A stretch of DNA of 64,000 nucleotides, from IMG/VR virus record IMGVR_UViG_3300028837_000875, positions 24,572 through 88,571 of that record; one strand, 5' to 3'. Origin of the DNA: a virus. This document shows, piece after piece, positions 30,938 to 52,630 of this stretch (the stretch's first letter is position 1; every line of letters begins with the position of its first letter). The translations under genes and the position numbers were made by a program. The notes under the pieces were generated by a model, which saw nothing but the letters and a program-made list of their open reading frames with translations, ran no database searches and was not told where the DNA came from.

Positions 30938-31765
30938 ATGAAGTTAGAGGCGATGAAGTCGTTCGCAAAGGACAACGGAATCAAGGTCAGCAAGAAGGAG
31001 ACGGAGAAATCGCTGGAACTGAAGATACGCGAGAAGTGGGAAGAGGACGGCATTGAAAACGAATGCCTCTGCCCGTCTTGCAGTGCAGAAATTCCTGACT
31101 TGAATAGCTGTCCGTTCTGCGGTTCGGTATTTGAGGAAGAGGAGAAAGAGGAGCCTCAGCCTGAGAAGGAAGAGAAGAAAGAAAGCAAAAAGAAAGCAAA
31201 GTCAAAAGGTAAAGGGAAGAAAGACAAGCCCGCAAAGAAAGAGAAGCCGGCCAAGAAAGAGAAGGCGAAGAAAGAAAAGAAGGGACCCAAGGCAGGTGGC
31301 TTGAACTTCAAAGACTGCGTCGAGCACATTTCTTCTTACGTCGAGAAAGAGGGCTACGAAGTCAGGGTAAGAGGCAACTTTACTTCTTACTTCATCGACG
31401 GCCTCCGCGTTTTCCACATCTCAAAAGCTACCAGAGCTTACTCGATGGAAATCGGTGCTCCTGGTTTCTCAATGAAGATGAAGCACGGAGAAGTCAAGAC
31501 TTTCTCTGACGAAGAAAGAGCACGCAAGCACATGGCTGGCATGTTCGGCACTCTCAAGACAACCAATCTTGACGAAGCTCTTGCAGCGGTCAAGGAAATG
31601 ACCAAGTGTGCGAGAGCATATCTGGCGAAGAACAAGAAAGAGAAGCCGACAAAGAAAGAGAAGGCAGCGAAGAAAGTCAAGAAGCCTGCGAAGAAAGCGG
31701 CCAAGAAGCCCGCAAAGAAAGTGCTCAAGAAGAAAGTCAAGAGCAGCAAGAAGAAAAAGAAGTAA
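30938..31765 (+). CDS. Histone H1-like Lys/Ala/Pro-rich DNA-binding protein with zinc ribbon
   Basis: KKPAKK repeats; CPSC...CPFCG; AAGGAGGT SD; own terminator. Confidence 0.6.
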   Translation: MKLEAMKSFAKDNGIKVSKKETEKSLELKIREKWEEDGIENECLCPSCSAEIPDLNSCPFCGSVFEEEEKEEPQPEKEEKKESKKKAKSKGKGKKDKPAKKEKPAKKEKAKKEKKGPKAGGLNFKDCVEHISSYVEKEGYEVRVRGNFTSYFIDGLRVFHISKATRAYSMEIGAPGFSMKMKHGEVKTFSDEERARKHMAGMFGTLKTTNLDEALAAVKEMTKCARAYLAKNKKEKPTKKEKAAKKVKKPAKKAAKKPAKKVLKKKVKSSKKKKK

Positions 31766-31788
31766 CAACCATCTCTCTATTCTCTCGG

Positions 31789-31815
31789 GGAAGCTCTGCG
31801 GAGCTTCCTTTTTTT
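31789..31815 (+). terminator. Rho-independent terminator
   Basis: GGAAGCTC-TGCG-GAGCTTCC followed by T7. Confidence 0.85.
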
Positions 31816-31821
31816 ATGTTT

Positions 31822-31843: not shown

Positions 31844-31879
31844 AGATATAAAGAGAATTCAATTAAGCAGTAGGAGCAG

Positions 31880-33187
31880 TTGATGAAGGACAATCTGGTT
31901 ATCGGTGGAGGCATATCAGGCCTCATTTTTTGCTATTACAATCCTGAGTTTTATTTGATTACAGATTCTCTTGGAGGCTTGCTCAAACAAGAGGGTAAAT
32001 TTGGAGTAATGACTTTATGGGATACTCCAGAAACTCGAAAGCTCTTAAAAGATTTAGATATTGAAGTCAAGCCGTACAAGGCAGAGATTAGATATTTCTT
32101 CAATGGTAAAATTTATGAAGTGGCTCCTGACGTTTTGCGTCGTGAATACATTCAAAAAAAGATGGGGCAGCTTGCACACAAAATTGACTTTGCAGATTTG
32201 GCTTTGTCTACTGACGAGACGAATTATATTCCTGCTCTCAAAGTTGACTTTGATGTGCTCATGGAAAAGTTGCTGCACGAAGTTGAGAGCCGAAAGAATT
32301 ATATGATAGCTACAATTTCAGAAATTCGAGATGATTCAATTACTCTTTATGATATGAAGAGTCCTTCAAGAATAATGAAATATAAAACGCTTGTCTCTAC
32401 TATCCCAGCATTTCTATTTTGGTTGATGTGGAAAGGACGAGAGTGCAGAGAAGTTTGTGTTCCAGGAGAATTTGCTTTCAGTCCAACTACTACAGTTTCT
32501 ATGAAAGCTCCTCATAAAAATTTGATTTCACTCTTTGATGAAATGAACGGAATGATTCCAGCGTATATCTATTATCTTGATAACTCAAGATTTCATAGAT
32601 TCTCGCACAGCTCTCAAGGCTGTTACGCTTTTCAGTTTGCAGGAGAGATTTCAAAGGAAGAGATTGCAATATATCTTGAAGTAGATGAATCTGATTTAGA
32701 ATATCGAGTCGAGAAGATAGGGCAGTTCGTTACGCACAAGGGTAACATTCCTCCACGCAATATTATGTTTCTTGGAAGGCATGCGCAATGGGATTATAAA
32801 GTTAAGGTCCAGGACATTGTGCGTGTCTCTCGATTCTCTAAGTTCATGCTTGCTGATATGAGGAGCAGGCAATCAAGATTCAATAAGAACTTTATGGACT
32901 TCAATTCGCTGAGCTTTGAAGATAGACAGCGATTGACTGAGAAGTGGATTCTGTATGTGCAGGCAGAGTTGACCGAACTCTTGGACGAAACAAACTGGAA
33001 GTTGCATCGGCCTGGAAAGGAGATTGAAAAGAGCAAGATATTAAATGAGTGGATTGATTCTTTGAAGTTTTTATTAGGTATTGCAGATATTTGGGGCTTT
33101 GACAATGCGGAGATATTCAAGGCGTTCCACGATAAGAGCGACTTTGTTGAGAAACGTTTTCAGGAGGAAGAGAAGAATGGGAAATGA
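31880..33187 (+). CDS. FAD-dependent oxidoreductase fused to all-alpha dimeric dUTPase/NTP-pyrophosphatase
   Basis: VIGGGISG Rossmann motif and LGRHAQW; C-terminal AELTELLDETNWK...NEWIDSLKF...AFHDKS. Confidence 0.75.
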   Translation: MMKDNLVIGGGISGLIFCYYNPEFYLITDSLGGLLKQEGKFGVMTLWDTPETRKLLKDLDIEVKPYKAEIRYFFNGKIYEVAPDVLRREYIQKKMGQLAHKIDFADLALSTDETNYIPALKVDFDVLMEKLLHEVESRKNYMIATISEIRDDSITLYDMKSPSRIMKYKTLVSTIPAFLFWLMWKGRECREVCVPGEFAFSPTTTVSMKAPHKNLISLFDEMNGMIPAYIYYLDNSRFHRFSHSSQGCYAFQFAGEISKEEIAIYLEVDESDLEYRVEKIGQFVTHKGNIPPRNIMFLGRHAQWDYKVKVQDIVRVSRFSKFMLADMRSRQSRFNKNFMDFNSLSFEDRQRLTEKWILYVQAELTELLDETNWKLHRPGKEIEKSKILNEWIDSLKFLLGIADIWGFDNAEIFKAFHDKSDFVEKRFQEEEKNGK

Positions 33188-34112
33188 GTTTGAGTCAATC
33201 ACAGAGTTCCATGGCAAGAAAATGTTGAATGCATTTCATAAAGGAGAGAAGCCGAAAACAGATTTCAAAGATTCTTCGGATTCTGTTAGAGTTGCTTTGC
33301 TTAATTATTCTCCAAGTGTATACGAGGACATGTTCTGGTTCATCATGGGCTCGTATGGAAACGAAGCCAACAAGAGAAAGCAGTTCACTCCTTCAGAGGA
33401 AGATATTGAAAAGGTTATTGAAGCTTGCTTGAATCGTGAAGCAATGCCGTTAGCTCTTGAAATTCCGAAGTTTACTTTCGTAATATGGGGCATTGATAGA
33501 ATCATCACTCACCAGATAGTCAGAAACAGAATTGGTGTTGTGTATTCTCAACACTGTACGGGAGACAATGACATACGTCATGTAGATTTTCTCCTGCCAC
33601 ATCGAATGATAGGAGCAAACACAGAGGACGAAGTAGATTTCAGGATGCGAGTGAAGGAATGGCATAGAGTTGGCAAGGCACTCTACGCAGAAGGCATTGA
33701 CGTCCATGGATATTCCATGCAGGACATGAGGCACATGATGCCGCAGGACGTGGATACGTACGTAATGATGAGTTGTAATTACATGATGCTTCAGAACTTT
33801 GTCGGCCGGCGTCTCTGCTCAAATGAGACGATGCAGATTCAGCGAGTAGCAGAATTGATTAAAGAGGAAGTGACAAAGGTCTATCCGTTTCTTGGTCGTC
33901 ATCTAATGAGCAATTGCGATAGAGCAAAGAGATGTCACTTCAAGAAGAATGGAACAATCTTTGGAGGTTCTGTTTATTATCCTTGCGGCAAGTATCCATG
34001 GAGCAGCAAAGAAGCTCCTGACCCGGAGGCATTCATTCACCCTATGACTTCAGAAGAAATCAGACAGGTAGAGAATCCGGCTTACAGACATTTAGAATCT
34101 GAGCAGGATTAG
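33177..34112 (+). CDS. thyX: ThyX-like flavin-dependent enzyme with non-canonical motifs
   Basis: FTFVIWGIDRIITHQIVRNRIG..YSQHC; QDMRHMMP; FVGRRLC. Confidence 0.75.
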   Translation: MGNEFESITEFHGKKMLNAFHKGEKPKTDFKDSSDSVRVALLNYSPSVYEDMFWFIMGSYGNEANKRKQFTPSEEDIEKVIEACLNREAMPLALEIPKFTFVIWGIDRIITHQIVRNRIGVVYSQHCTGDNDIRHVDFLLPHRMIGANTEDEVDFRMRVKEWHRVGKALYAEGIDVHGYSMQDMRHMMPQDVDTYVMMSCNYMMLQNFVGRRLCSNETMQIQRVAELIKEEVTKVYPFLGRHLMSNCDRAKRCHFKKNGTIFGGSVYYPCGKYPWSSKEAPDPEAFIHPMTSEEIRQVENPAYRHLESEQD

Positions 34113-34264: not shown

Positions 34265-34804
34265 ATGATAATTTCAGTAGAAGGACCTGACGGATGTGGA
34301 AAGACAAGCTTTGCAAAAGAGCTTGAAAAGAAAACAGGCTTGCCAATAATCGAGTACAACTTTCAGATTGTTGGAGGCAATAGAAAAGAAGAACTTGCAT
34401 ATATTCAAATGCTTTCGTTTGTTGCCATCTCTTTTCATTTTAATTTCATCCGTGATAGGCATCTAATGTCTAATATGGTTTATGCATCTATATTTTCTGA
34501 TGATTGTTATTGGCGTAAATATCTTGAGCTAATAGAAAGGACTCAAATACTCATTGCATATATTCACGTTCCAGCAGAAGAATTGATTAAGAGAATCAAG
34601 CAGCGTGAAGCAAGTGATGGAATTAAAGAGCCTGAAGATATACTTCTAAACTTGTTGGTGGCACATGAAAGTTTTGAAACTGCTTATTTTGAAATCAAGA
34701 AAAGATTTCCAGAGAAGATAATCAAACTTGATGGCTTGCTGACAATTGAGGATATGGTCAGTGATTATTTCAAGAAAAGACTCCAGCAAGAAAGGCAAAC
34801 ATGA
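34265..34804 (+). CDS. Thymidylate/dNMP kinase
   Basis: IISVEGPDGCGKTS P-loop; IRDR..SNMVY. Confidence 0.8.
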   Translation: MIISVEGPDGCGKTSFAKELEKKTGLPIIEYNFQIVGGNRKEELAYIQMLSFVAISFHFNFIRDRHLMSNMVYASIFSDDCYWRKYLELIERTQILIAYIHVPAEELIKRIKQREASDGIKEPEDILLNLLVAHESFETAYFEIKKRFPEKIIKLDGLLTIEDMVSDYFKKRLQQERQT

Positions 34805-35856
34805 AACCTTATACTGAAAAGAAATTCGAGAAAATCTTTCCTTGGTTTGAAGCAATCAATCTTGATTTGCTGAAGGCACCAGTTGCAGTAAGACTTTTGG
34901 TGACAGATAAGTGCGCTTGCAAATGTCACATGTGTACGCACTGGAAGATGAAAAAGTTTTACTCGCTCGATTATAAAACGTTCAGTTCAATTGTGCTTGC
35001 TTGTCAGAACAATGGAACTCAATCTATGTTTCTTTCAGGAGGAGATGTCTTTTCTTGGGAGTGCTGGGAAAGATTTTTGAAAGATGAAGAAATTACAATT
35101 GCTGCTCTGACTGTTACGCCATTGATAATTCCAAAAAGCTTTGACAAAGATTTGCTCAAGAGACTCAAATGGCTACGAGTTTCTTTTGATGCAATCAAGA
35201 GTGAAACGTTCAAAAAAATCAGAGGCGTAAACGCGTTGTCATCTGTAAAGCATGACTTGTCTTATATCCTCGCTAACAAATTGGTAGAGGATATCGGCAT
35301 GACAACTGTTTTGCAGAAGGATAATTTTTCAGAGATTATAGAGATGGGTGAATACTTCGTTAACTTGGGCATCAAGAGATGGATAGTTCAGCCAGTCAAT
35401 TATAATCCAAGGCTCAGCTTAACTCCTGAAGCAATACAAATGCTTGGCTATCAGTTGAGCAAGAAGTTTGGTGAAGCCATACCAACAAACAATTTCGATG
35501 TCCTTCAAAGCGATTTCAGTCTTTGGAATTCTACTCACAATCTGCCTTGCATAATTCCGCGCATGGAAGCATTCATTGATACAAGACTCAGGGTATGGCC
35601 TTGCTGCAATCTTGCTCAAGATGCGCACGGAGATGAAGAAAGAGCAGAGAGATTGAAAATGGGTACGTTTATACAAGGCGCAAGTGCCGGTGAATATTTC
35701 CTTGAGCTTTGGCGTGAACGTAGAAATCTGCTCGATAAATTTACTGACTTCAAAGACATTCATCCTTTATGCAAGCAGACATGTAAGTTCAAATACTTCT
35801 ACTATAATCTTGGCTTTGATTGGTGCAGAAAAAACAGAGAAGCTATTTATATTTGA
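34801..35856 (+). CDS. Radical SAM protein with SPASM/twitch domain
   Basis: CACKCHMC (CxxxCxxC), LSGGD, VSFDA, LPC...VWPCC...CKQTC. Confidence 0.85.
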   Translation: MKPYTEKKFEKIFPWFEAINLDLLKAPVAVRLLVTDKCACKCHMCTHWKMKKFYSLDYKTFSSIVLACQNNGTQSMFLSGGDVFSWECWERFLKDEEITIAALTVTPLIIPKSFDKDLLKRLKWLRVSFDAIKSETFKKIRGVNALSSVKHDLSYILANKLVEDIGMTTVLQKDNFSEIIEMGEYFVNLGIKRWIVQPVNYNPRLSLTPEAIQMLGYQLSKKFGEAIPTNNFDVLQSDFSLWNSTHNLPCIIPRMEAFIDTRLRVWPCCNLAQDAHGDEERAERLKMGTFIQGASAGEYFLELWRERRNLLDKFTDFKDIHPLCKQTCKFKYFYYNLGFDWCRKNREAIYI

Positions 35857-35867
35857 TAGGATGTAAT

Positions 35868-36482
35868 GTGCCTCAAATTTCAGAAAGAATGCTGATTAGG
35901 AAACACCGATTTCATTTGGAGCGTTCTATTCAAGAATGTTCAGAGTGCAGCATACATAGAAACGAAGAGAATATACAATCCAAATCTATGGGTAATGGCA
36001 ATTGCTATGACCCTGATATTTTTTTCATAGGCTTAGCTCCTTCTCAGAATAGACGGCCGCTCAAGCAAGATAAGCATGGCAACAAAATTCCTCTAAGAAC
36101 ATTTGAGTATTTAGTAGGTGGAAGATTTAGAAGATTGCTCAAGAGCTTAGGACTATATGAGAGAAGCTATCTAACAAATCTACTCAAGTGCAGCACTCCT
36201 GATAATAGAAAACCAAAACACACAGAAATAAAAAATTGCTCAGTATGGTTTCACAAGGAATTCAATATGCTATCTCCCAGAGCCATTGTCCCTTTGGGCA
36301 ATGTTGCAAGACGTGCTCTCGAAAGAACGATGCAAATGACAGATGACAACAGAGGATTTTTATTTGGCGTAGAGGTAATCGTCATCAATTGCTTTCATCC
36401 GAATTATTGTTATAGCTATGGTGGAATAACTGAGGAACGTTATGCCGAGCTATTATTAAAAGTAGAGAAAGAGTTAGAGTGA
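35868..36482 (+). CDS. Uracil-DNA glycosylase family 4-like (Fe-S) protein with divergent motif A
   Basis: CSEC, FFIGLAPS, YLTNLLKC...NRKP...EIKNC, FHPNY; overlaps the dnaE start. Confidence 0.75.
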   Translation: MPQISERMLIRKHRFHLERSIQECSECSIHRNEENIQSKSMGNGNCYDPDIFFIGLAPSQNRRPLKQDKHGNKIPLRTFEYLVGGRFRRLLKSLGLYERSYLTNLLKCSTPDNRKPKHTEIKNCSVWFHKEFNMLSPRAIVPLGNVARRALERTMQMTDDNRGFLFGVEVIVINCFHPNYCYSYGGITEERYAELLLKVEKELE

Positions 36483-39400
36483 AAAGATTTCCTAAAAAGT
36501 TAGACATGACCATTCCGGAATATGAAGAGGATAAACATCTGTATACACCCATTCATGTTCATTCTTCGTATTCTCTTTTTGATTCAGTCAGCACAATCAT
36601 GGAGATTCCAGAAGTTGCCAAGAAGCTTGGAATGAAAGCTGTCTCTTTATCTGACCATGGAACAATGAGCGGTACGTTTTCTTTTGTCGAGCATTGCAAA
36701 AGTAGTGGAGTTAAACCAATTGTAGGCTGTGAGTTCTATGTCAATCCAAGAAGATTAAAAAAAGATAAAGATGCAAACAACCAACACTTGTGTTTGTTTG
36801 CAATGAACATGGAAGGATGGAAGAATCTACTCAAGATAACTTATGACGCAGTTACTAATGGATTCTACTTCAGGCCAAGAACAGATTTGGATTTTATAGC
36901 TGAGCATTCGGAAGGACTCATTTGCACTACTGCTTGCATGGCCTCGCCAATCATCAAGCCGTTTCTCGATGATAATAAAAAGCAAGCTCTAAACAACTTG
37001 AAAAAGTTGAAAGAAGTTTTTGGAGATAGGCTGTACATAGAATTTCAATTCAACGAATTGGATATTCAAAAAAAGATTGTAGACTGGCTTGAATTTATTA
37101 CCAAACGCTTTGGTCTCAAATCTTTGTATGGACTTGATTCTCATTACACGTATCCGAATGATGTGTATCTGCAAGATATTATAAAACTCAATAGAAGAAA
37201 GATGACTGTATATGATGCCAATTGGCAGGAGGCGATTTTTGATATACGTAGACTTTTTATTAAGCCGTTTCAAGTGGCTCTCGACGAACCTGAGGAACTG
37301 GGATTCAAAGTAACCAAACAACGAGTTCGGTCACTTTTAGAAACAACTAATGAGCTTGCAGGTAGAATTCATTTTGAGTTTGAATTAGGATTGCACGCAC
37401 CTGTTTATGAGCATCGTGGCAAAGCGGTAGACCAAGCCAAGTTTTTGAAGCTTCAAATTCAACGCGGCTTCTTGAAGAAAATCAAACAAGGTATGATTCC
37501 AAAAGGACAAGAGGAAGCTTATAGAAAAAGAACATGGTATGAATATGAGCAGATACTTAAATGCGGTTATCCAAATTATTTCTTAATGATTTGGGATATG
37601 GTTCGCGTTGCTGTAAGGCGTGGAATACAAAAGGGCATAGGCAGAGGCAGTGCTTCTGGTTCGCTTGTGTCTTTTGTTCTTGATATAAGCGGAGTGGACC
37701 CCATCAAACATGGCTTGCTCTTCGAGAGATTTCTTGACGTAGAAAGAAAAGACCCACCAGATATAGATTTAGACTGGGAATCAGAACGCAGAAATGAGAT
37801 TGAAGATTATCTTGTCGAGAAGTATGGAAAAGAAAAAGTAGCTCATGTTGCAACGTTCAGTTATTGGGGAACAAAGTCTGCTCTCAGTGAAGTATTCAAA
37901 ACGCTTGGAGAAGATGGAAGTCCTATCTTCGAGATGTCAAAATGGATTCGTTCTGATGAAAAAGACATTCGATATGCAAAGCATGTTGATGATGCTATTG
38001 AATGGCTGAGAAAATATTGTCCGAAAAATGAAGTGATAGATTTAGTTGATAGACAAATGGAACTGGGCGTACCGCTTGCAAAGCGGCTGGTTGATAATGT
38101 GCGTCATGTAGGTTTGCACGCCGGAGGAATTGTCGTCTCTCCTAAGCCGATATGGGAATACATTCCAGTGATTCAGCATAAAGGAAAAATTGTAACTGGT
38201 TTTCCTCAGAGTTCAGAAATACGAAGAGGAGAATGGGGAACGCTTGAGAAAATAGGATTGATAAAGATTGATAATCTTGGAGTCAATTCAGTCTCTACAA
38301 TTAAAGCAACACTTCTCTTGATAAAAGAGAGGCATGACTTAGATTTGTTTGAGCATATATGGAAAGTTGAGTTAGATGATTCTGAGGTATATCGTTTTTA
38401 TGCTGAGTGTTTTACGGAAGGTGTATTTCAAGTAGAGTCAGATAGCATAAACAATTTTATCAGAAGATTGAAGCCAAGCAATTTCAGTGACATCTGTGCT
38501 CTTATGGCTTTGTATAGACCAGGTAGTTTGCAATCAGGAGAATCAGAACGCTTTATAAAGCGCAAGGCTGGAAAAGAGAAGATTGAATATGTACATCCAA
38601 AGCTCAAGAAATATCTTGAGGATACGTATGGGTGTTTTGTTTATCAAGAGCAGCTAATGTTTATCATGCAAGAGCTGGCTGGCTTTGGAAAAGGAGAAGT
38701 TCTACGCAAGATGAAACTTCTCAAGCAAGCATATGATGTCAACAATGTAGATGTGCTTGCAATGGTAAAGCGATTGAGAGAGGAATTGATAAGGCTTTCT
38801 AACTTTACAGAAAAGCAAGCAGATGAATTAACTGAAATGATGCGCAAGTGTTATGCGTATATCTTCAACAAATCTCACGCGACTTCTTATGCGTTCTTCT
38901 CATACCAAATGATGTGGCTTAAAGTACATTATCCTATTGAGTTCTTTTGTGGATTGCTTTCTCGCACGGAGAATCAAATCACAGAATTGAAAGGTGGTGC
39001 AATCAAGTTAAAAATTAAGAAGTATATCTCCGCAGCAAAAAAGCTTGGCATCACAGTTCTTCCTCCAAAGTTTGGAGTATCTGGAAGTGAATTCAAAATT
39101 ATAGATGACAGCACAATTGTTGCTGGTACTCGCATCATAGTTGGCATCGGCAAATCAGCGGCAGAGCTTGACAAGACTGTGGATGATTCCTGCTTTGAGG
39201 ATTTTGTCTGCAATGAAAATATACAGTGGCAGAAACTCAACAAAAGTAAAGTTGAGAAGCTAATAAAAATTGGCTACTTTGATGATTCAGTAAAGACAAG
39301 AAAGAGCATCACCAAAAAACAATTAGTACATGCATGGAAGCTTTACAACGAGAGAAAGAAAAAGAAATGTGAAAGAGATACGATAGTAGAAGCAATCAAA

Positions 39401-39934
39401 GAATCAGTCAAGATAGTTGAAGGAGAATATAGCAAAGCAGAGTTGCTTGAGTTCCAGATTCAAATGTTCAGATTTTTCTTTACTGAACATCCGTTAGAAT
39501 CAAAAGACATAGTCAATCTCATTTGGAAATACAATAAGAAGCAATCTAAGAAAGCACTCAAGATACGCAAGGTCTCTGAGCTTAATTCATCTTCCGCTAA
39601 GCGTGGCACAATGATAGGTTATATCTCAAGCATAAGACGTACAGTGCCGAAGTGCGGCCCATCTAAGGGTGAGCAAATGGCAATTGTCACAATAGAAGAT
39701 AACAGAGATAAGGCAAGAGTTCTTATATGGCCTGAGTTCTATGAGATTCCAGAATATAAAAAGTTGCTGAAAGAGGGAAACGTTCTTGTGCTCAGATTGA
39801 AACGCAAGAAACAATCTGGTGAGGAAGATTCAAAAGTATATGAGCTTGCAGATATTAGCGGCAAAGCACAATTGGTGAGTGCGGTAGACTTGGGTAGAAG
39901 AATAAAGAGAAACACAAAAAGAAAGAAGGAATAA
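36479..39934 (+). CDS. dnaE: DNA polymerase III alpha subunit (family C)
   Basis: PHP HVHSSYS/SDHG, GRGSASGSLV, FERFL, PDIDLD, FNKSHA, C-terminal OB fold. Confidence 0.95.
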   Translation: MKRFPKKLDMTIPEYEEDKHLYTPIHVHSSYSLFDSVSTIMEIPEVAKKLGMKAVSLSDHGTMSGTFSFVEHCKSSGVKPIVGCEFYVNPRRLKKDKDANNQHLCLFAMNMEGWKNLLKITYDAVTNGFYFRPRTDLDFIAEHSEGLICTTACMASPIIKPFLDDNKKQALNNLKKLKEVFGDRLYIEFQFNELDIQKKIVDWLEFITKRFGLKSLYGLDSHYTYPNDVYLQDIIKLNRRKMTVYDANWQEAIFDIRRLFIKPFQVALDEPEELGFKVTKQRVRSLLETTNELAGRIHFEFELGLHAPVYEHRGKAVDQAKFLKLQIQRGFLKKIKQGMIPKGQEEAYRKRTWYEYEQILKCGYPNYFLMIWDMVRVAVRRGIQKGIGRGSASGSLVSFVLDISGVDPIKHGLLFERFLDVERKDPPDIDLDWESERRNEIEDYLVEKYGKEKVAHVATFSYWGTKSALSEVFKTLGEDGSPIFEMSKWIRSDEKDIRYAKHVDDAIEWLRKYCPKNEVIDLVDRQMELGVPLAKRLVDNVRHVGLHAGGIVVSPKPIWEYIPVIQHKGKIVTGFPQSSEIRRGEWGTLEKIGLIKIDNLGVNSVSTIKATLLLIKERHDLDLFEHIWKVELDDSEVYRFYAECFTEGVFQVESDSINNFIRRLKPSNFSDICALMALYRPGSLQSGESERFIKRKAGKEKIEYVHPKLKKYLEDTYGCFVYQEQLMFIMQELAGFGKGEVLRKMKLLKQAYDVNNVDVLAMVKRLREELIRLSNFTEKQADELTEMMRKCYAYIFNKSHATSYAFFSYQMMWLKVHYPIEFFCGLLSRTENQITELKGGAIKLKIKKYISAAKKLGITVLPPKFGVSGSEFKIIDDSTIVAGTRIIVGIGKSAAELDKTVDDSCFEDFVCNENIQWQKLNKSKVEKLIKIGYFDDSVKTRKSITKKQLVHAWKLYNERKKKKCERDTIVEAIKESVKIVEGEYSKAELLEFQIQMFRFFFTEHPLESKDIVNLIWKYNKKQSKKALKIRKVSELNSSSAKRGTMIGYISSIRRTVPKCGPSKGEQMAIVTIEDNRDKARVLIWPEFYEIPEYKKLLKEGNVLVLRLKRKKQSGEEDSKVYELADISGKAQLVSAVDLGRRIKRNTKRKKE

Positions 39935-46385: not shown

Positions 46386-46681
46386 AAAAGAAACTGAGAA
46401 AGAAGAAAATAAAAACTGAAGTCGAAATATGGGAGCCGCTTAGTGATTGCGTGATGCTCTCTATTATAGATTCTCCTCCCGAATTACACAAGTGTAAAGT
46501 TTTGAAGGTTGGTCCAGGTATTCCAACCTATATGGGAACTATATATCCCACAGGAATAAAAGTTGGTGACATCGTATTGATAAGTCGTTATCCGCATATA
46601 GATTTGTTCAAAGGCAAGGAGCGTATTATATTAGTTAGAGCTACGAAAATTCTCGCGCTTTGCAAGAAAGTGAAATCATAA
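46376..46681 (+). CDS. groES: GroES/Cpn10-like co-chaperonin lacking the mobile loop
   Basis: EPLSDCV...KVLKVGPG...IKVGDIVL...VRATKILA. Confidence 0.7.
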   Translation: MGMKKKLRKKKIKTEVEIWEPLSDCVMLSIIDSPPELHKCKVLKVGPGIPTYMGTIYPTGIKVGDIVLISRYPHIDLFKGKERIILVRATKILALCKKVKS

Positions 46682-47265
46682 TGAAGATAAAGAAAATCAA
46701 AGTTGCAGCTTTTCCTAAAAAGAAATACACAGTTATTTATGCAGACCCACCCTGGCCATTTGGTAGTAGAACAAGAGGACCAAAAACTTCTGACCCATTT
46801 GTATCAATTGCTACTCATTATCCAACTATGAGCGTCAAAGAAATCTGTGCTCTGCCTATATCTCAAATCTCAAACAGCACGTGCGCTTGCCTCTTGTGGG
46901 TGCCTGATGCTTTTCTTGATGAAGGAATTCAAGCTCTTAAATCTTGGGGCTTTAAGTATAAAACAGTTGCGTTTGTTTGGTCTAAGATTACAAAGAACGG
47001 AAAGCAAGTTTGCAATAAAGCTCCTTACACAATGAAGAATTGTGAGTTGGTTTTGCTTGGCACTCGAGGACCAGTTACAAAGCTTATGAAAAAAAGAAAC
47101 GTAAGACAATTACAGATAGCAATCAGACCAAAGCAGCATAGCGCAAAACCAGACGAGATTAGAAACAAGATAGTAGAAATGTTTGGTAAGAGAGTCAAGC
47201 GGATTGAATTGTTTGCTCGAAAGAAATCTGAAGGCTGGGATTCGTGGGGCAATGAAATAAAATGA
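46681..47265 (+). CDS. MT-A70 family N6-adenine methyltransferase
   Basis: IYADPPW, HYPTMS, HSAKP, IELFAR, GWDSWGNE. Confidence 0.9.
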   Translation: MKIKKIKVAAFPKKKYTVIYADPPWPFGSRTRGPKTSDPFVSIATHYPTMSVKEICALPISQISNSTCACLLWVPDAFLDEGIQALKSWGFKYKTVAFVWSKITKNGKQVCNKAPYTMKNCELVLLGTRGPVTKLMKKRNVRQLQIAIRPKQHSAKPDEIRNKIVEMFGKRVKRIELFARKKSEGWDSWGNEIK

Positions 47266-48197: not shown

Positions 48198-48829
48198 AGA
48201 AAAAAAGAATCAAGTTGACAGACAATCCTTGCTTCATTGGCTTGGACATGTCTATTAACGGAACTGGAATTTGCATCTTCAACAATGTGCAGAATATGGT
48301 TCACGTTGAGGTTGTTGAACCAAAACTTCTTGCAAGCTCTGATGTAGCAAAATGCGTCATAGGCAGATTAAGAATTTCTGACTTCAGTAGATACAGAGAG
48401 GTAGTCAATAGAATCATTCAACTCATTAAAGCATTTCAAGTCAAGGCAGTAGTAATTGAGAATTATGCTTTTGGTATCAGGAAGTCTAAATCTCTAACAA
48501 AACTTGGTGAGCTTGGCGGGATATTAAGAAATGCCTTGATTGATATGAGTATTCCTTTTACTGAGGTTACACCTAACTCAGCAAAGAAATTCATCAGCGG
48601 CAAAGGTGTATGTCCTGAACCTCTAATGCTTCTGAAGGTTGCAAAGAAATGGAAAGAGGAATTCGATTCAGTCAAGGATAGAAGAAAGATTGATGCAGCG
48701 ATAGCATATGGCCTTGGCAGAATTGCCTGGAACATATATTCTGAGAAATCAAAAATGAGTGATTTGCTTGAGTACGAAGTTGAAGTGTTAAAGAAGATTG
48801 CGAAGGATAAAGATGCCAAGGATAATTAA
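48194..48829 (+). CDS. RuvC-like Holliday junction resolvase
   Basis: IGLDMSINGTG, VVIENYAF, LGELGG, VTPNSAKKF. Confidence 0.8.
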   Translation: MKKKRIKLTDNPCFIGLDMSINGTGICIFNNVQNMVHVEVVEPKLLASSDVAKCVIGRLRISDFSRYREVVNRIIQLIKAFQVKAVVIENYAFGIRKSKSLTKLGELGGILRNALIDMSIPFTEVTPNSAKKFISGKGVCPEPLMLLKVAKKWKEEFDSVKDRRKIDAAIAYGLGRIAWNIYSEKSKMSDLLEYEVEVLKKIAKDKDAKDN

Positions 48830-49373
48830 AGCAACTTGGGATAATCTATATCACATGTGGAAAGACTGCAAGAGATGTGACTTGCATGAAAACCGCAGTC
48901 GAGTTGTCTTTGGCAAAGGTCCAAAGAAAGCGAAAATCTTTTTGATTGGTCAGGCTCCTGGAAAGACTGAAGATAAACTTGGAAAACCATTTGTAGGTTT
49001 GATGGGTAAACTGCTTAGAGAAATGATGGAAGCAATAGGAATGAGTCCTGATAGAATGTACATTTCTAATTCTGCGGCTTGTTATCCTCTTGCGGATGCA
49101 ATGCCCACAGTTCATCAAGTAAAAATGTGCTATCCAAGATTGAAGATGGAAATTGAGTTAGTAAAACCAAAATTCATTATCTATTGCGGAATGAGAGCCG
49201 CTACAATTTCTGGCTTGTGTGAAGAGTACGCAAGATTCTTTGAACAGTTCAAGACTTTATTTATGAATCATCCGGGTTCTATCAGAAGGGACTCGGGAAG
49301 AAAAGAAGATATAAGAAAGCAACTTCAATTTATTAAGGATGCTATCATAAGAGATGGAGGGAAAGTAGCGTGA
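48813..49373 (+). CDS. Uracil-DNA glycosylase family 4
   Basis: CKRCDLH, VFGKG, IGQAPG..ED..GKPFVG, YISN...C, HPG. Confidence 0.85.
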   Translation: MPRIIKATWDNLYHMWKDCKRCDLHENRSRVVFGKGPKKAKIFLIGQAPGKTEDKLGKPFVGLMGKLLREMMEAIGMSPDRMYISNSAACYPLADAMPTVHQVKMCYPRLKMEIELVKPKFIIYCGMRAATISGLCEEYARFFEQFKTLFMNHPGSIRRDSGRKEDIRKQLQFIKDAIIRDGGKVA

Positions 49374-52300
49374 TAAAATTTCCGAAGCTTGGCTACAAGA
49401 TTACAGAGAATGCCTTGGCAGTTCTGAAAGAACGTTATCTTTTTAGAAATCCAGAAGGAGAGATAATCGAGAATCCATCAGAAATGTTTTGGCGCGTAGC
49501 TAAGTATGTTGCTTCAGTTGAAAAGACAAAAGCAAAAAGAATTAAATGGACTGAGATATTCTATGATTTGATGGCATCGGGTGATTTCATGCCGAACACA
49601 CCGACGTTGTTAAATTCAGGCAGAGAAAATCTTTCAGTCCTTGCTGGTTGCTTCGTCATAGAGGTCAACGATACTATTTACGGAGGACTTGATTCTATTT
49701 TTGGTTCAATAGAACTCATGGCATTGATTCATAAGATGGGTGGAGGAACTGGTTGCTCATTTCATAAGCTTCGCCCACATGGAGCACGCGTTACTTCTAC
49801 TGGTCATGTTGCTTCAGGACCGGTGTCCTTCATGCGCAACTTTGATGAAGCGATTGAAGCAATTCAGCAAGGTGGCATGAGACGTGGAGCACACATGTCA
49901 ATAATGAAAGTAGACCATCCAGACATCGAAGAATTTATTGAATGCAAGAATAAGTTGAATCAAAGAACAAAAGTTGTTCTTGATAGAATAACGAAAGCCT
50001 TGCATCTTGATTTGGATGGAGAGTTCAGAACAATAATCAAAGAAGCTATCATTCGTTCACAACTGACAAACATGAACATTTCAATATCATTGACTGCTGA
50101 ATTTAAACAAGCTTTGAAGAAAGGAACTTCATACGATATAGTAAGTCCTCAGACTGGCAAAGTAGTCAGACAAGAAAATGCAGGACGCATTTTTAATCTC
50201 ATGGCTCAGAATGCTTGGAAGTCAGGAGAGCCTGGCTTTATTGATTTAGAAAGAATCAATGCAGATAATACTTGTCCGCATCTTGGGGAAATATATTCAA
50301 CCAATCCTTGTGTAGTTGGAGATACTCCAGTTTCAACAGTAAATGAAGGACCTCAAATCTTTGAGGATTTAGTTGGTAGAGAAGTTTTGGTTTATGCTTA
50401 TGATAATAAGAGTAGTGAAATCAAAGTAAGTATGATGCGCAACATACGAAGAACTGGTAAAAACATTCCTATTATGAAATTGGTAATTGATAAAGGAACT
50501 GCTAATGGTATTTTGAGTCAAGATTATAATGGACGTTTTGAAGAACACAAATTGACTCCTGAACACAAACTGTATTTAAGAAACGGTTTAGAAGTGATGA
50601 TAAAGAACTTAGTTCCAGGAGACAGATTGTTTCCGCATCAAATTAAAGCAAGCGGAAGAGCGAGAGTAGTTATAAGAAATGGATTAGGCAAATATAAATC
50701 TCGCTCTCATTATGTAGCAGAATATAAGTTTGGGAGAAAGCTTAGAAATGATGAAGTAGTTCATCACAAAGATGGCAATGGCAGTAATGATAATCCTGAA
50801 AATCTTGAAATTGAAACTGATAGTTATCACAAATCACATCATTGTAGAGACTCAAATTTAAGTGGCATACGAAGTTTGAAAGGCTCTAAGAATCCAAACT
50901 TTAATCATATCAAAAAAGAGACATTGATATATTATGGATGTCTCTGTGTTTCTAAGTATGGAACTGTCAGAAACGGAAGTGTTTGGAATGAGTTCAGAAA
51001 AGAAGTTAGAGAAATTGAGTTGCCAGGAAGAGGAACTATTGAAAGGCTATTTGGCAGTTATCGTGAGTTTCAAGAAGCATGTATCTTATCTTCTGTTTTG
51101 ATTGAAAATCACAAAGTTGTTTCAGTTGAATACTGTGGCAAAGCAGATGTATTTAATGGAACTGTAGATAAGTATCACAACTATTTCATTGCGGATAGAA
51201 AGGCGCGTTCTGGGAATTTAGTTACAGGAATACTCAGTAAAAATTGTGGTGAACAGCCGTTGAGACCATTTGAGTCTTGCACGCTTGGTTCAATTGCTGT
51301 TTCAAGAATGGTTGAAAAGAAAAATGGACAGCTCAAATTTGACTATGTCAAGTTCAAAGAAAGAATTTATCAGGCCATACGCTTTCTTGATAACGTTCTT
51401 GATGCACAAAAGTATCCAGTGTCTGAGATAAAAGAAGAATCACAACGTACTCGTAAGATAGGCCTTGGAGTTATGGGTTTTGCAGATTTGCTAATTAAGT
51501 TTGGCATTCCGTATGGCTCTCAAGATTGTATTGATTTGATTCATGTGATGATGTCTAAGTTTGAGATACAGACTCGTCGAGCTTCAATAGACCTTGCAAG
51601 AGAAAAAGGAAAGTTTCCAGCTTGGAAAAAATCGACTTATGGCAAACAAGGATTGCCGATGCGCAATGCAATGCGGACAACAATAGCGCCAACAGGTTCA
51701 ATCTCTGGGATAGCTGGAGTTTCGTTTGGCATTGAACCGCTTTATGGTTTATCTTTCACTCGTAGAATCTTGGACGGTAAAACATTTGTTGAAGTTTCAG
51801 AGGTTGCAAAAGAAGCATTGAAGCGCAAACATTGTTGGAGTGAAAGAGCAGAGCAAACGATTCGTGAAGATGGTACACTAAATAATTGTGAATGGATTCC
51901 TCCTGATATTAGAATGGCATTCAAGACAGCACACGAGATAAATCCCGAAGAGCACTTAATAGTTCAAGCAGCGTTTCAGAAATATATTGATAATGCTGTT
52001 TCCAAAACAATCAATCTTCCAAACTCTGCTACTGTTGAGGATGTCAACAATATATTCAGGAGAGCAATTGAATTGAAGTGCAAAGGCATCACTGTATATC
52101 GTGATGCTTCAAGAGAAGAACAAGTTCTAACTACAGGAAAAGCAAAGTTTCAATCAATTAGAGAAGTTAGAAAGAGACCAAGAAAGCTTAATGGAACAAC
52201 CTACGAAAAGCAAGTTGGAGAATGCGGCAAGCTTTTTGTAATAGTCAATTCAGATAAAGATGGTTATCCATTTGAGATTTTCATTGAGGCTGGAAAATCG

Positions 52301-52630
52301 GGTGGCTGTATGCAGTCTCAACTTCAAGCTATTGGAAGATTGATTTCAAAATCTTGGCAGAGCGGTTTGGGATTAGAAACAATAGTCAAGCAGTTGACAG
52401 GAATTACTTGTCATCAGTCTAAGCCTTCGTTTGATAAAAAACAATCGTTTCTATCTTGTGCGGATGCAATTGCAAAAATTATTCAAGAACATTTTATTGG
52501 AGAGGAAGGAGAGGAAGAGCAGTTTGATGAAAAGCCAAAGAGTAATATCTGCTCGTATTGCGGAGGGCCGATGATACATGAAGGACATTGTTCTACATGC
52601 ACGGCTTGTTTCAAAAGTTTATGTGGATAG
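49370..52630 (+). CDS. nrdJ: Class II (B12-dependent) ribonucleotide reductase with intein and C-terminal TSCPD/Zn domain
   Basis: VLKERYL, FMPNTPTL, GGGTG, QQGGMRRGA, NP|CGEQ, TIAPTGSIS, SKTINLP, KGITVYRD. Confidence 0.92.
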   Translation: MIKFPKLGYKITENALAVLKERYLFRNPEGEIIENPSEMFWRVAKYVASVEKTKAKRIKWTEIFYDLMASGDFMPNTPTLLNSGRENLSVLAGCFVIEVNDTIYGGLDSIFGSIELMALIHKMGGGTGCSFHKLRPHGARVTSTGHVASGPVSFMRNFDEAIEAIQQGGMRRGAHMSIMKVDHPDIEEFIECKNKLNQRTKVVLDRITKALHLDLDGEFRTIIKEAIIRSQLTNMNISISLTAEFKQALKKGTSYDIVSPQTGKVVRQENAGRIFNLMAQNAWKSGEPGFIDLERINADNTCPHLGEIYSTNPCVVGDTPVSTVNEGPQIFEDLVGREVLVYAYDNKSSEIKVSMMRNIRRTGKNIPIMKLVIDKGTANGILSQDYNGRFEEHKLTPEHKLYLRNGLEVMIKNLVPGDRLFPHQIKASGRARVVIRNGLGKYKSRSHYVAEYKFGRKLRNDEVVHHKDGNGSNDNPENLEIETDSYHKSHHCRDSNLSGIRSLKGSKNPNFNHIKKETLIYYGCLCVSKYGTVRNGSVWNEFRKEVREIELPGRGTIERLFGSYREFQEACILSSVLIENHKVVSVEYCGKADVFNGTVDKYHNYFIADRKARSGNLVTGILSKNCGEQPLRPFESCTLGSIAVSRMVEKKNGQLKFDYVKFKERIYQAIRFLDNVLDAQKYPVSEIKEESQRTRKIGLGVMGFADLLIKFGIPYGSQDCIDLIHVMMSKFEIQTRRASIDLAREKGKFPAWKKSTYGKQGLPMRNAMRTTIAPTGSISGIAGVSFGIEPLYGLSFTRRILDGKTFVEVSEVAKEALKRKHCWSERAEQTIREDGTLNNCEWIPPDIRMAFKTAHEINPEEHLIVQAAFQKYIDNAVSKTINLPNSATVEDVNNIFRRAIELKCKGITVYRDASREEQVLTTGKAKFQSIREVRKRPRKLNGTTYEKQVGECGKLFVIVNSDKDGYPFEIFIEAGKSGGCMQSQLQAIGRLISKSWQSGLGLETIVKQLTGITCHQSKPSFDKKQSFLSCADAIAKIIQEHFIGEEGEEEQFDEKPKSNICSYCGGPMIHEGHCSTCTACFKSLCG
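50309..51244 (+). mobile_element. Intein (312 aa) with HNH homing endonuclease
   Basis: Interrupts NP|CGE; starts CVVGDT, block B LTPEH, ends VFNGTV..YHNY...ILSKN; internal VHHKDGNGSNDNPENL. Confidence 0.9.

What the first reader, a model, noticed from the sequence alone, without database searches (positions are those of the whole stretch)
31880..33187. FAD-oxidoreductase / dimeric dUTPase-like fusion
Seen: a single 435-aa ORF. The first ~315 aa have GxGxxG and a C-terminal LGRHAQW, reminiscent of UDP-galactopyranose mutase/protoporphyrinogen oxidase-like flavoproteins. The last ~115 aa carry ExxE...NWK...EWID all-alpha NTP-PPase motifs. Inference: the fusion ties the flavoenzyme to nucleotide handling, for example processing a nucleotide or nucleotide-sugar while the PPase removes the competing dNTP.
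Basis: partly seen in the sequence, partly recalled or inferred. Interest (0 to 1): 0.7.

Follow-up and report, generated by a model that had tools for sequence, protein, structure and literature searches.

The report
Sugar-mutase-like flavoprotein fused to dNTP pyrophosphatase
A gene of an uncultured marine-sediment phage fuses an orphan relative of the flavin enzyme UDP-galactopyranose mutase to a small nucleotide-triphosphate-cleaving domain; it heads a widely conserved, uncharacterised enzyme set built around an altered ThyX that probably makes a modified, possibly sugar-bearing, pyrimidine for the phage's DNA.

Summary
One intact ORF (31883..33187, 434 aa from the ATG) joins two domains. 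The N-domain (~319 aa) matches no Pfam, PHROG or NCBIfam model. Its closest folds, and its only sequence relatives in the PDB, are UDP-galactopyranose mutases. The C-domain (118 aa) is an all-alpha NTP pyrophosphatase (dUTPase_2, above Pfam's cut-off) with a complete ExxE...ExxD metal site. Contigs from other samples show no stop or indel, and about 40 diverged protein clusters share the fusion.

The gene belongs to a cassette. A non-canonical ThyX lies within five genes in 20 of 21 informative loci. The pyrophosphatase is fused or adjacent in 14 of 17, and a dNMP kinase is present in 15 of 17. GalE-type sugar epimerases recur, but glycosyltransferases do not. Host genomes also carry other thymidylate synthases.

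The N-domain is homologous (hhalign 97.8 %) to Pbunavirus F8 gp065. F8 DNA carries sugar-derived hypermodified thymidine whose genes are unknown.

My best reading is a T4 gp56-like pyrophosphatase coupled to a sugar-handling flavoenzyme in a pyrimidine hypermodification pathway. The chemistry is not shown.

This scan found the same cassette before on other DNA (a CPR bacterium, Pbunavirus and uncultured phages). I found no publication that characterises it.

The parts
31787..31816 (+). Terminator-like hairpin plus T-run ending the upstream unit; the fusion gene heads a new transcription unit
   Evidence: 10-pair stem, 5 GC pairs, T-run; sequence
31872..31876 (+). Ribosome-binding site AGGAG, 6 nt before ATG 31883
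31883..33187 (+). Fusion gene (434 aa from the ATG; the ORF is open from TTG 31880): flavoN domain plus NTP-PPase domain
   Evidence: identical 434-aa P0002; intact in independent contigs
31880..32836 (+). N-domain ('flavoN', aa 1-319): orphan UGM-like Rossmann flavoprotein fold
   Evidence: No Pfam, PHROG or NCBIfam hit; AF2 pLDDT 90; UGM best by Foldseek and VIA-align; only UGMs significant in the profile search against PDB sequences; stand-alone homologues end here
31904..31921 (+). Dinucleotide-binding motif GxGxxG (G9, G11 invariant; G14 in 42 of 43)
32570..32599 (+). Invariant Y231...R240, aligned to UGM Y317...R327 (A. fumigatus) and R278 (E. coli Glf)
32774..32797 (+). G299-R300...W304.Y306 motif, aligned to UGM GRFGSWRY / GGRLAEYKY
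32837..33184 (+). C-domain (aa 320-435): compact all-alpha NTP pyrophosphohydrolase (dUTPase_2 / MazG-like)
32966..32977 (+). Metal-ligand motif ExxE (E363, E366)
   Evidence: E363 in 15 of 15 and E366 in 13 of 15 fused rows
33047..33058 (+). Metal-ligand motif ExxD (E390, D393)
   Evidence: 15 of 15 fused rows
33177..34112 (+). Non-canonical ThyX-like gene; its ATG overlaps the end of the fusion gene by 11 nt and follows an AGGAGG at 33162-33167
34265..34804 (+). P-loop dNMP kinase-like gene (cassette member)
34801..35856 (+). Radical SAM-like gene (weak Pfam hit below cut-off; only in the window's close relatives)
35820..36482 (+). UDG-superfamily gene
36479..39934 (+). PolIII-alpha-type replicative polymerase closing the gene run (labelled from its 1151-aa translation and its clustering with PolIII-alpha-sized ORFs in related loci; not itself scanned against Pfam)
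   Evidence: an annotated PolIII alpha occupies the same position in Serratia phage Hera

Best explanation
The ORF is a genuine bifunctional protein that opens a pyrimidine-nucleotide modification operon. The order is fusion gene, altered ThyX, dNMP kinase, radical SAM, UDG-like gene, polymerase.

Inferred role of the C-domain: it works like T4 gp56. It cleaves a canonical pyrimidine dNTP (dUTP, dCTP or dTTP; the specificity is unknown) to dNMP plus PPi. This feeds the ThyX-like enzyme and keeps the unmodified dNTP out of DNA. The kinase then re-phosphorylates the modified dNMP for the phage polymerase.

Inferred role of the N-domain: it is a pared-down UGM-type flavoenzyme. It keeps UGM's diphosphate- and sugar-contacting Arg/Tyr set, so it most likely binds an NDP-sugar and processes it through reduced-flavin N5 chemistry (ring opening or ring contraction). 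That would supply the sugar-derived group that ends up on the pyrimidine made by this cassette.

Shown here: the two domains, the intact metal site, the UGM-type fold and motifs, the conserved gene set, the non-canonical ThyX, and homology to Pbunavirus F8 gp065. Inferred: every substrate, the flavin cofactor and the product.
For: 1. Domains. dUTPase_2 scores above its cut-off. ExxE...ExxD is conserved in the fused forms and invariant in stand-alone relatives.
3. Cassette. A ThyX-like gene lies within 5 genes in 20 of 21 loci with enough downstream DNA. The PPase is fused or adjacent in 14 of 17 loci and a kinase is present in 15 of 17. Across the family tree the PPase is fused, separate downstream, or separate upstream. 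In the window, the ThyX-like start overlaps the fusion gene's end by 11 nt.
4. The ThyX-like enzyme is not a housekeeping thymidylate synthase. The equivalents of T. maritima H53, S88 and R90 are kept in only 2, 5 and 0 of 25 sequences; their roles are described in PMC11940539. The three CPR genomes checked carry an additional, stronger-scoring ThyX-family gene, and one also has a ThyA. The phage has two ThyA-family genes.
5. Sugar link. A GalE-type NDP-sugar epimerase/dehydratase sits in the cassette in at least 10 loci, often between flavoN and ThyX. One locus has a cytidylyltransferase-like gene plus an FkbM methyltransferase there. One family member is fused behind a DXD glycosyltransferase (P0161).
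6. Cultured relatives. The flavoN family is homologous over its full length to Pbunavirus F8 gp065 and its relatives (hhalign 97.8 %, E 1e-12, 275 columns). These also sit beside a non-canonical ThyX. F8 and 14-1 DNA carries sugar-derived hypermodified thymidine with no known genes (PMC12191111).
7. Precedent. Phage hypermodification clusters combine a dCTPase, a TS homologue, a kinase and sugar-nucleotide enzymes, including a UGM in phage RL38J1 (PMC13326640).
Against: I found no glycosyltransferase or sugar enzyme among about 60 window ORFs scanned, and none recurs in the flanks of about 45 loci. A classical 'make the donor, then transfer with a GT' scheme therefore lacks its transferase here.

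Pfam's GLF model does not register. The N-domain is about 50-190 residues shorter than UGMs, and the region where UGM carries its uridine-binding helical domain is reduced to two helices.

The acidic residue at the end of beta-2, which usually holds the FAD ribose, is present in only 9 of 43 members, although the window's protein has D29. Flavin binding is predicted, not shown.

Sugar enzymes occur in only a minority of loci, whereas the nucleotide enzymes are nearly universal. The fusion need not mean consecutive steps: the same PPase module is also fused to NT5C phosphatases, a kinase and UDG domains.

The Pbunavirus modification is motif-specific (TG, about a quarter of T), which points to chemistry on DNA rather than on free nucleotides.
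Confidence: 0.5

Rival explanations
1. Direct nucleotide redox partner. The N-domain is an oxidase or dehydrogenase of the PPO/amine-oxidase kind. It acts on the ThyX-like product itself, for example by oxidising a C5-hydroxymethyl or aminomethyl group of a dNMP. The conserved Arg/Tyr residues would hold the nucleotide's phosphate rather than an NDP-sugar.
Against: UGMs stand about 4 Z units above PPO. Only UGMs are found by sequence, and UGM-specific Arg/Tyr motifs are kept. NDP-sugar enzymes recur in the cassette, and a GT fusion exists.
Confidence: 0.2
2. Ordinary UGM. The N-domain simply makes UDP-galactofuranose (or another NDP-furanose) for a conventional glycosyltransferase encoded elsewhere, as proposed for phage RL38J1. 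It has no mechanistic tie to ThyX-like, and the fusion is only pathway-level bookkeeping.
For: UGM is the closest known family. There are GalE-like neighbours, the GT-flavoN fusion P0161 and the RL38J1 precedent. The phage record is only 78 % complete, so a GT could lie outside it.
Against: GLF does not match. The helical uridine-binding region is much reduced. No GT was found in the window or in about 45 neighbourhoods. This reading does not explain why ThyX-like is present in 20 of 21 loci.
Confidence: 0.15
3. Plain thymidylate supply. A dUTPase makes dUMP, ThyX makes dTMP, the kinase makes dTDP, and the N-domain serves as an NAD(P)H-dependent reductase that recharges the ThyX flavin.
For: The gene order matches the textbook dUTP to dUMP to dTMP to dTDP route. 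Eukaryote-type UGMs, the closest folds, bind NAD(P)H (entries 5vwt and 5vwu).
Against: ThyX-like lacks the folate-stacking His, the Ser and the Arg-Tyr of canonical ThyX. The CPR genomes and the phage carry other thymidylate synthases. Sugar enzymes sit inside the cassette. No UGM-fold protein is known to me as a flavin reductase for another enzyme.
Confidence: 0.1

Closest known systems
UDP-galactopyranose mutase (Glf/UGM, EC 5.4.99.9; e.g. PDB 4dsg, 3ukh, E. coli K-12 Glf), including the UGM of Rhizobium phage RL38J1 proposed to supply UDP-Galf for DNA glycosylation (PMC13326640)
   Different: There is no match to Pfam GLF. The domain is 50-190 residues shorter, with the helical uridine-binding region reduced. 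Identity is only 12-16 %. It is paired with a ThyX-like enzyme rather than a galactofuranosyltransferase, and it is fused to an NTP-PPase.
Pbunavirus F8 gp065-type flavoproteins of cultured phages (also Serratia phage Hera gp54, Rhizobium phage RHph_Y65 gp191, Wifcevirus); F8 and 14-1 carry sugar-derived hypermodified thymidine (PMC12191111)
   Same: The two families are homologous over their full length (hhalign 97.8 %, E 1e-12, 275 columns). They share the conserved motifs and the placement beside a non-canonical ThyX and the replicative polymerase.
   Different: The families are separate: tblastn with the window protein finds no cultured phage. gp065-type proteins are not fused to the PPase (F8 has a separate MazG-like gp049). 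Their partner genes differ (HAD/PNK phosphatase, SDR, glyoxalase-fold).
T4 gp56 dCTPase/dUTPase with gp42 and gp1; RB69 and DLP3 dCTPase, 5hodCMP synthase and kinase (PMC13326640)
   Same: The logic is the same: an all-alpha NTP-PPase, a thymidylate-synthase-type enzyme and a dNMP kinase replace a canonical pyrimidine. That T4 gp56 belongs to the dUTPase_2 family is my recollection, not tested here.
   Different: The base-modifying enzyme here has a ThyX fold, not a ThyA fold. The PPase is a 118-aa core fused to a flavoprotein.
Dimeric dUTPases (C. jejuni 1w2y, L. major 2cje) and MazG-like pyrophosphatases (4qgp, YpjD 2gta)
   Same: Profile hits at E 6e-5 to 1e-3 cover the ExxE...(W)K...ExxD motifs.
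   Different: The domain lacks the second (mobile) domain and the C-terminal motifs of true dimeric dUTPases. It matches only positions 4-89 of the 162-position Pfam model.

Membership tests
UDP-galactopyranose mutase (Pfam GLF PF03275) | Match to the curated GLF family model | tested here: not met
   hmmscan of the protein at E<=1 gives no GLF hit. A six-frame search of the whole phage record with PF03275 at E<=10 finds nothing, while the control genomes respond.
UDP-galactopyranose mutase (Pfam GLF PF03275) | Rossmann FAD-binding domain with GxGxxG and the overall UGM fold | tested here: met
UDP-galactopyranose mutase (Pfam GLF PF03275) | Essential active-site Arg (E. coli R278 / K. pneumoniae R280 / A. 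fumigatus R327; residue roles from my own knowledge and from the mutant entries 3ukp and 3ukq) | tested here: met
   Family-invariant R240 aligns to this Arg in HMMER and hhalign alignments.
UDP-galactopyranose mutase (Pfam GLF PF03275) | C-terminal G-R...Y.Y motif (E. coli R340, Y346; A. fumigatus R447, Y453) | tested here: met
   G299 and R300 are invariant and W304 is present in 41 of 43. Y306 is present in the window and in 23 of 43 members (His or Phe in most others).
UDP-galactopyranose mutase (Pfam GLF PF03275) | Five-helix uridine-binding domain and mobile-loop Arg (K. pneumoniae R174 / A. fumigatus R182) | tested here: inconclusive
   The model has only two helices (84-101, 124-137) and a lower-confidence loop in that region. 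No sequence alignment covers it. No residue-level structural alignment was available.
UDP-galactopyranose mutase (Pfam GLF PF03275) | Interconversion of UDP-Galp and UDP-Galf by the reduced flavin | not testable with these tools
   This needs an enzyme assay.
All-alpha NTP pyrophosphohydrolase (Pfam dUTPase_2 PF08761 / MazG-like) | Family model match above the curated cut-off | tested here: met
   27.9 bits against a cut-off of 22.9, residues 326-412; PHROG 173 and 18650; PDB profile hits 4qgp, 2cje, 1w2y and 2gta.
All-alpha NTP pyrophosphohydrolase (Pfam dUTPase_2 PF08761 / MazG-like) | Four acidic metal ligands ExxE...ExxD | tested here: met
   E363, E366, E390 and D393 are present. In the fused rows they are kept in 15/15, 13/15, 15/15 and 15/15, and they are invariant in stand-alone relatives.
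Dimeric dUTPase proper (C. jejuni / trypanosomatid type) | Two-domain (rigid plus mobile) architecture of about 230-290 aa | tested here: not met
   The domain has 118 aa and matches only positions 4-89 of the 162-position model. Alignments to 2cje and 1w2y cover only their first ~86 residues.
Canonical ThyX (for the coupled neighbour 33177..34112) | RHR...S.RY motif and the folate-stacking His | tested here: not met
   The window's motif reads VRNRIGVVYSQHCTGD (family consensus VRNRIG.TYSQQC.GD) against VRHRH-FSFSQLSQRF in a solved ThyX. His53-equivalent is kept in 2 of 25, Ser88-equivalent in 5 of 25 and Arg90-equivalent in 0 of 25. Residue roles are from PMC11940539.
Flavin amine oxidase / protoporphyrinogen oxidase (Pfam Amino_oxidase PF01593) | Family model match; best structural neighbour | tested here: not met
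gp065-type phage flavoproteins (Pbunavirus F8 gp065 and relatives) | Full-length profile-profile homology and placement beside a non-canonical ThyX | tested here: met
   hhalign probability 97.8 %, E 1.1e-12, 275 columns. ThyX genes lie nearby in F8, Hera and RHph_Y65. F8 ThyX against the ThyX-like profile gives 99.2 %, E 1e-19.

The most novel reading that the evidence does not exclude
The UGM-like flavoprotein and the altered ThyX together perform a glycosyltransferase-independent, flavin-N5-iminium-mediated transfer of a sugar carbon chain onto C5 of a pyrimidine dNMP. An NDP-sugar would replace methylene-tetrahydrofolate as the carbon donor. UGM chemistry opens the sugar on reduced flavin, and ThyX chemistry delivers an N5-bound carbon to C5. 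The products would be C5-C1'-linked polyhydroxyalkyl or C-glycosyl pyrimidines. This would explain four things: the obligate pairing, the loss of the folate-contacting residues in ThyX-like, the recurrent NDP-sugar enzymes, and the absence of GTs. By my own arithmetic it also fits the Pbunavirus nucleoside masses: dU minus H plus C5H11O4 gives 362.3, and dU minus H plus C6H11O5 gives 390.3.
Probability: 0.15. Interest if true: 0.92.

Novelty: new variant of a known kind. Interest (0 to 1): 0.66.

Why it matters
Phage DNA hypermodifications defeat restriction enzymes and CRISPR, and they are a source of new nucleic-acid chemistry and tools. This cassette (UGM-like flavoprotein, altered ThyX, NTP-PPase, kinase) is widespread: 627 protein clusters match at E<=0.001. 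It occurs in uncultured phages, on what look like CPR-bacterial chromosomes, and, through the homologous gp065 family, in 362 cultured-phage records that include the Pseudomonas therapy phages of genus Pbunavirus. Those phages carry a sugar-derived modified thymidine whose genes are unknown, so the cassette is a concrete, genetically testable candidate for making it. The fusion in this window adds a Rosetta-stone argument that the flavoprotein belongs to dNTP-pool chemistry. If the two flavoenzymes cooperate, it would be a new way to attach a sugar to a nucleobase.

Tried and rejected
I built the context from the search for related loci instead.
- tblastn of the window protein against 50,697 phage records found no match. 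The link to cultured phages appeared only through profile-profile comparison.
- Complex prediction of the ThyX-like protein with the N-domain gave no verdict (score 0.00, controls not run). I do not use it as evidence either way.
- No RNA holder was listed for the stretch, so nothing can be said about expression.
- A search for longer architectures (>762 aa) containing the N-domain found none, which is weak evidence.
- The context of the GT-flavoN fusion P0161 was not found in viral contigs.
- Pfam GLF found nothing in the own genome.
- hhalign of the family against E. coli Glf alone, or against a 20-sequence UGM profile, recovered only the C-terminal ~90 residues (E 0.007 and 4.7e-4). No full-length sequence alignment to bacterial UGM was obtained.
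- F8 gp066 is unrelated. F8 gp065 as a single sequence matched only the Rossmann segment.
- A batch Pfam census of 142 unlabelled neighbour clusters showed no recurrent glycosyltransferase. Singletons with weak E-values would not have been listed.
- I considered mis-binned phage as the source of the CPR MAG copies. For G001 contig C4 I rejected this, because two class II aaRS genes flank the module. A prophage or genomic island is not excluded.
- Terminase_6N was not found in the three MAGs.
- I recalled the His53 folate-stacking role and then confirmed it in PMC11940539, after two reviews did not state it.
Full report
**1. Observation**

The window is the last 64 kb of an 88.6-kb IMG/VR virus record estimated at 78 % complete. 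The long ORFs run almost entirely on the + strand and encode phage tail, replication and nucleotide genes.

- The ORF 31880..33187 is uninterrupted.
- An AGGAG lies 6 nt before the ATG at 31883, which makes ATG the likely start. That gives 434 aa, the length of the identical database protein P0002.
- A terminator-like hairpin at 31787-31810 precedes the gene.
- The next gene's ATG (33177, behind an AGGAGG) overlaps the end of the fusion gene by 11 nt.
- Public assemblies agree. One contig, probably from the source sample, spans everything without a difference. A second sample's contig crosses the domain junction identically. Variant strains from other marine-sediment and subsurface studies show only substitutions, almost all at third codon positions by my count, with no indel or stop.

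**2. The two domains**

*C-domain.* Residues 326-412 pass Pfam's cut-off for dUTPase_2 and hit PHROG NTP-PPase and dUTPase families.
- A profile of this domain and its stand-alone relatives finds a compact archaeal MazG-like pyrophosphatase (4qgp). It also finds the first ~86 residues of Leishmania and Campylobacter dimeric dUTPases, and YpjD.
- The ExxE...ExxD ligands (E363, E366, E390, D393) are conserved.
- It is a 118-aa MazG-sized core, not a complete dimeric dUTPase.

*N-domain.* It has no hit in Pfam, PHROGs, NCBIfam or single-sequence PDB searches.
- With a 43-sequence alignment (A1), AlphaFold2 gives pLDDT 90 and pTM 0.78.
- Foldseek ranks UGMs first.
- The family profile searched against PDB sequences finds only UGMs at significance (E 3e-5).
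- Family-invariant Y231 and R240 align to A. fumigatus Y317 and R327, and GRxAQWxY aligns to GRFGSWRY. The same mapping to E. coli Glf R278, R340 and Y346 comes from hhalign.
- Pfam GLF itself does not register. The region where UGM has its uridine-binding helical bundle is reduced to two helices.

**3. The family**

An exhaustive HMMER search finds 627 representative clusters at E<=0.001 and 209 at E<=1e-10. By my count of the table, about 40 of the best 150 are fused like the window's protein. Others are stand-alone N-domains of about 300 aa or stand-alone PPase domains of about 120 aa.

The PPase module also occurs fused to NT5C/HAD 5'-nucleotidases and to a thymidylate-kinase-like domain. 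One N-domain sits behind a DXD glycosyltransferase (P0161).

In an N-domain tree, fused forms make at least two well-supported clades. A basal clade has the PPase as a separate downstream gene, and a PolB-phage clade has it two genes upstream. The flavoprotein-PPase association is therefore family-wide and takes three arrangements.

**4. The cassette**

I collected 54 loci from viral contigs, metagenomes and genome bins, clustered their ORFs and labelled them from Pfam-checked references.

- Of 21 non-identical loci with at least 2.5 kb downstream, 20 have a ThyX-like gene within five genes, usually the next gene.
- Of 17 loci with both flanks, 14 have the PPase fused or adjacent and 15 have a dNMP-kinase-like gene.
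- Frequent extras are UDG-family genes, a short thymidylate-synthase-like fragment (sometimes fused to HhH-GPD), NUDIX, a deoxyribosyltransferase-like protein, and PolB or PolIII-alpha.
- A GalE-type NAD-dependent NDP-sugar epimerase/dehydratase occurs in at least 10 loci, often between the flavoprotein and ThyX-like genes. One locus has a cytidylyltransferase-like gene and an FkbM methyltransferase there instead.
- I found no glycosyltransferase in the window ORFs scanned or recurring among 142 unlabelled neighbour clusters.

**5. The partner ThyX is not canonical**

Against a solved ThyX, the motif VRHRH-FSFSQLSQRF becomes VRNRIGVVYSQHCTGD in the window, and LEH becomes LEI. Across 25 sequences, the equivalents of T. 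maritima His53, Ser88 and Arg90 are kept in 2, 5 and 0.

In canonical ThyX, His53 stacks the folate pteridine, Ser88 and Tyr91 are strictly conserved and critical for activity, and Arg90 is conserved beside Tyr91 (PMC11940539).

The enzyme is also an extra copy. Fused forms occur in Patescibacteria MAGs, one of them on a 454-kb contig where two aminoacyl-tRNA synthetase genes flank the module. Those genomes carry a separate, stronger-scoring ThyX-family gene, and one carries a ThyA as well. The phage has two ThyA-family genes upstream of the window.

**6. Literature and cultured relatives**

I found no paper on this family.

Lee et al. 2026 (PMC13326640) show that phage cytosine hypermodification clusters combine a dCTPase, a flavin-using ThyA homologue, kinases, glycosyltransferases and sugar-nucleotide enzymes. 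Phage RL38J1 encodes a canonical UGM for UDP-Galf.

Notes from earlier reports of this scan led me to Yee et al. 2025 (PMC12191111). Pbunavirus F8 and 14-1 replace about a quarter of their thymidines, in a TG motif, by nucleosides of 362 U and 390 U. The authors interpret these as sugar-alcohol and cyclised-pentose derivatives, and they identify no genes for them.

I tested the link to the window's family.
- F8's annotated ThyX (gp059) matches the ThyX-like profile at 99.2 % probability (E 1e-19) and has a non-canonical motif.
- An alignment of F8 gp065 with its relatives from Serratia phage Hera, Rhizobium phage RHph_Y65 and a Wifcevirus matches the flavoN family over 275 columns (97.8 %, E 1e-12), with all signature motifs aligned.
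- gp065 relatives occur in 362 phage records.
- In Hera, the flavoprotein, the ThyX, redox enzymes and PolIII follow one another.
- My model's Foldseek hit in Pbunavirus PA5 is plausibly this same protein.

**7. Interpretation**

The safe part:
- The ORF is a real bifunctional protein.
- It is the first gene of a conserved cassette that is not ordinary thymidylate synthesis.
- Its PPase, ThyX-like and kinase core has the logic of T4-type base replacement.

The uncertain part is what the flavoprotein does. I favour an NDP-sugar-handling, UGM-type role that provides the sugar-derived part of a modified pyrimidine, at confidence 0.5 for the explanation as a whole. The reasons are that UGM-specific residues are kept, that NDP-sugar enzymes and one GT fusion accompany the family, and that homologous cassettes sit in phages with sugar-derived thymidine.

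Against this reading:
- No transferase is present.
- The nucleotide-binding domain is reduced.
- Sugar genes are present in only a minority of loci.
- The Pbunavirus modification is motif-specific, which suggests steps on DNA.

The rivals are a direct redox role on the modified nucleotide (0.2), a plain UGM serving an unseen glycosyltransferase (0.15), and a reductase for an otherwise ordinary thymidylate route (0.1).

The most novel reading not excluded is that the two flavoenzymes cooperate to put a sugar carbon chain on C5 without folate and without a glycosyltransferase. By my own arithmetic this also fits the two Pbunavirus nucleoside masses.

**8. Verdict**

- I class this as a new variant of a known kind: a phage pyrimidine-replacement or hypermodification cassette built on a ThyX-fold enzyme and an orphan UGM-like flavoprotein.
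- The same cassette, including the fused form in a CPR bacterium, was noted earlier in this scan on other DNA.
- I found no publication that characterises it.

Noticed in passing
L006:13044-13559; L003:12120-12974 (16 loci in all): A short (170-310 aa) protein with a partial thymidylate-synthase (ThyA) match lies directly downstream of the ThyX-like gene and upstream of the polymerase. In some loci it is fused to an HhH-GPD glycosylase domain. It may be a DNA-level base-flipping or transfer enzyme of the cassette.
   Followed up: partly
L053:10642-11193 (10 loci); L011:9458-9943 (9 loci): Two conserved proteins of unknown function have no Pfam hit. One (181 aa) lies between the second kinase type and the UDG gene in the fused-type loci. 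The other (98-162 aa) lies just upstream of the flavoprotein gene.
   Followed up: partly
L037, L038, L054 (genes upstream of flavoN); L041: Further fusions occur inside the cassette: dUTPase_2-UDG proteins of about 275-295 aa, and a UDG-PolIII-alpha protein of 1447 aa.
   Followed up: no
G002:C9:1524-2882 and G003:C13:8208-9542: Patescibacteria MAGs encode single ORFs (721 and 557 aa) with two tandem Thy1 (ThyX) domains, separate from the cassette's ThyX-like gene.
   Followed up: no
L053:8001-9195 versus L002:9959-11242: Nearly identical N-domains (tree distance about 0.04) are fused in the viral contig L002 but split into a 360-aa and a 124-aa ORF on the CPR chromosome contig. This is a recent fission, a frameshift or an assembly error.
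   Followed up: no
window 49370-52630: The ribonucleotide reductase large subunit (1086 aa) carries intein and HNH endonuclease signatures plus a TSCPD domain.
   Followed up: no
window 35820-36482 and 48798-49373: The same phage has two separate UDG-superfamily genes, one inside the cassette and one next to RuvC and RNR.
   Followed up: no
window 46660-47265 and 58398-59831: The same genome encodes an MT-A70-type and an N6/N4-type DNA methyltransferase, so its DNA probably carries methylation in addition to whatever the cassette makes.
   Followed up: no
window 30938-31765 (also L001, L007, L009, L013, L014): A lysine-rich protein with an N-terminal zinc ribbon lies directly upstream of the fusion gene. 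It is conserved in that position in the window's closer relatives.
   Followed up: no
G000:C1:4246-4641 and 5563-5943 (upstream of the window): Two diverged ThyA-family ORFs score weakly against Pfam (34 and 42 bits). The first match contains in-frame stops in the six-frame read.
   Followed up: partly
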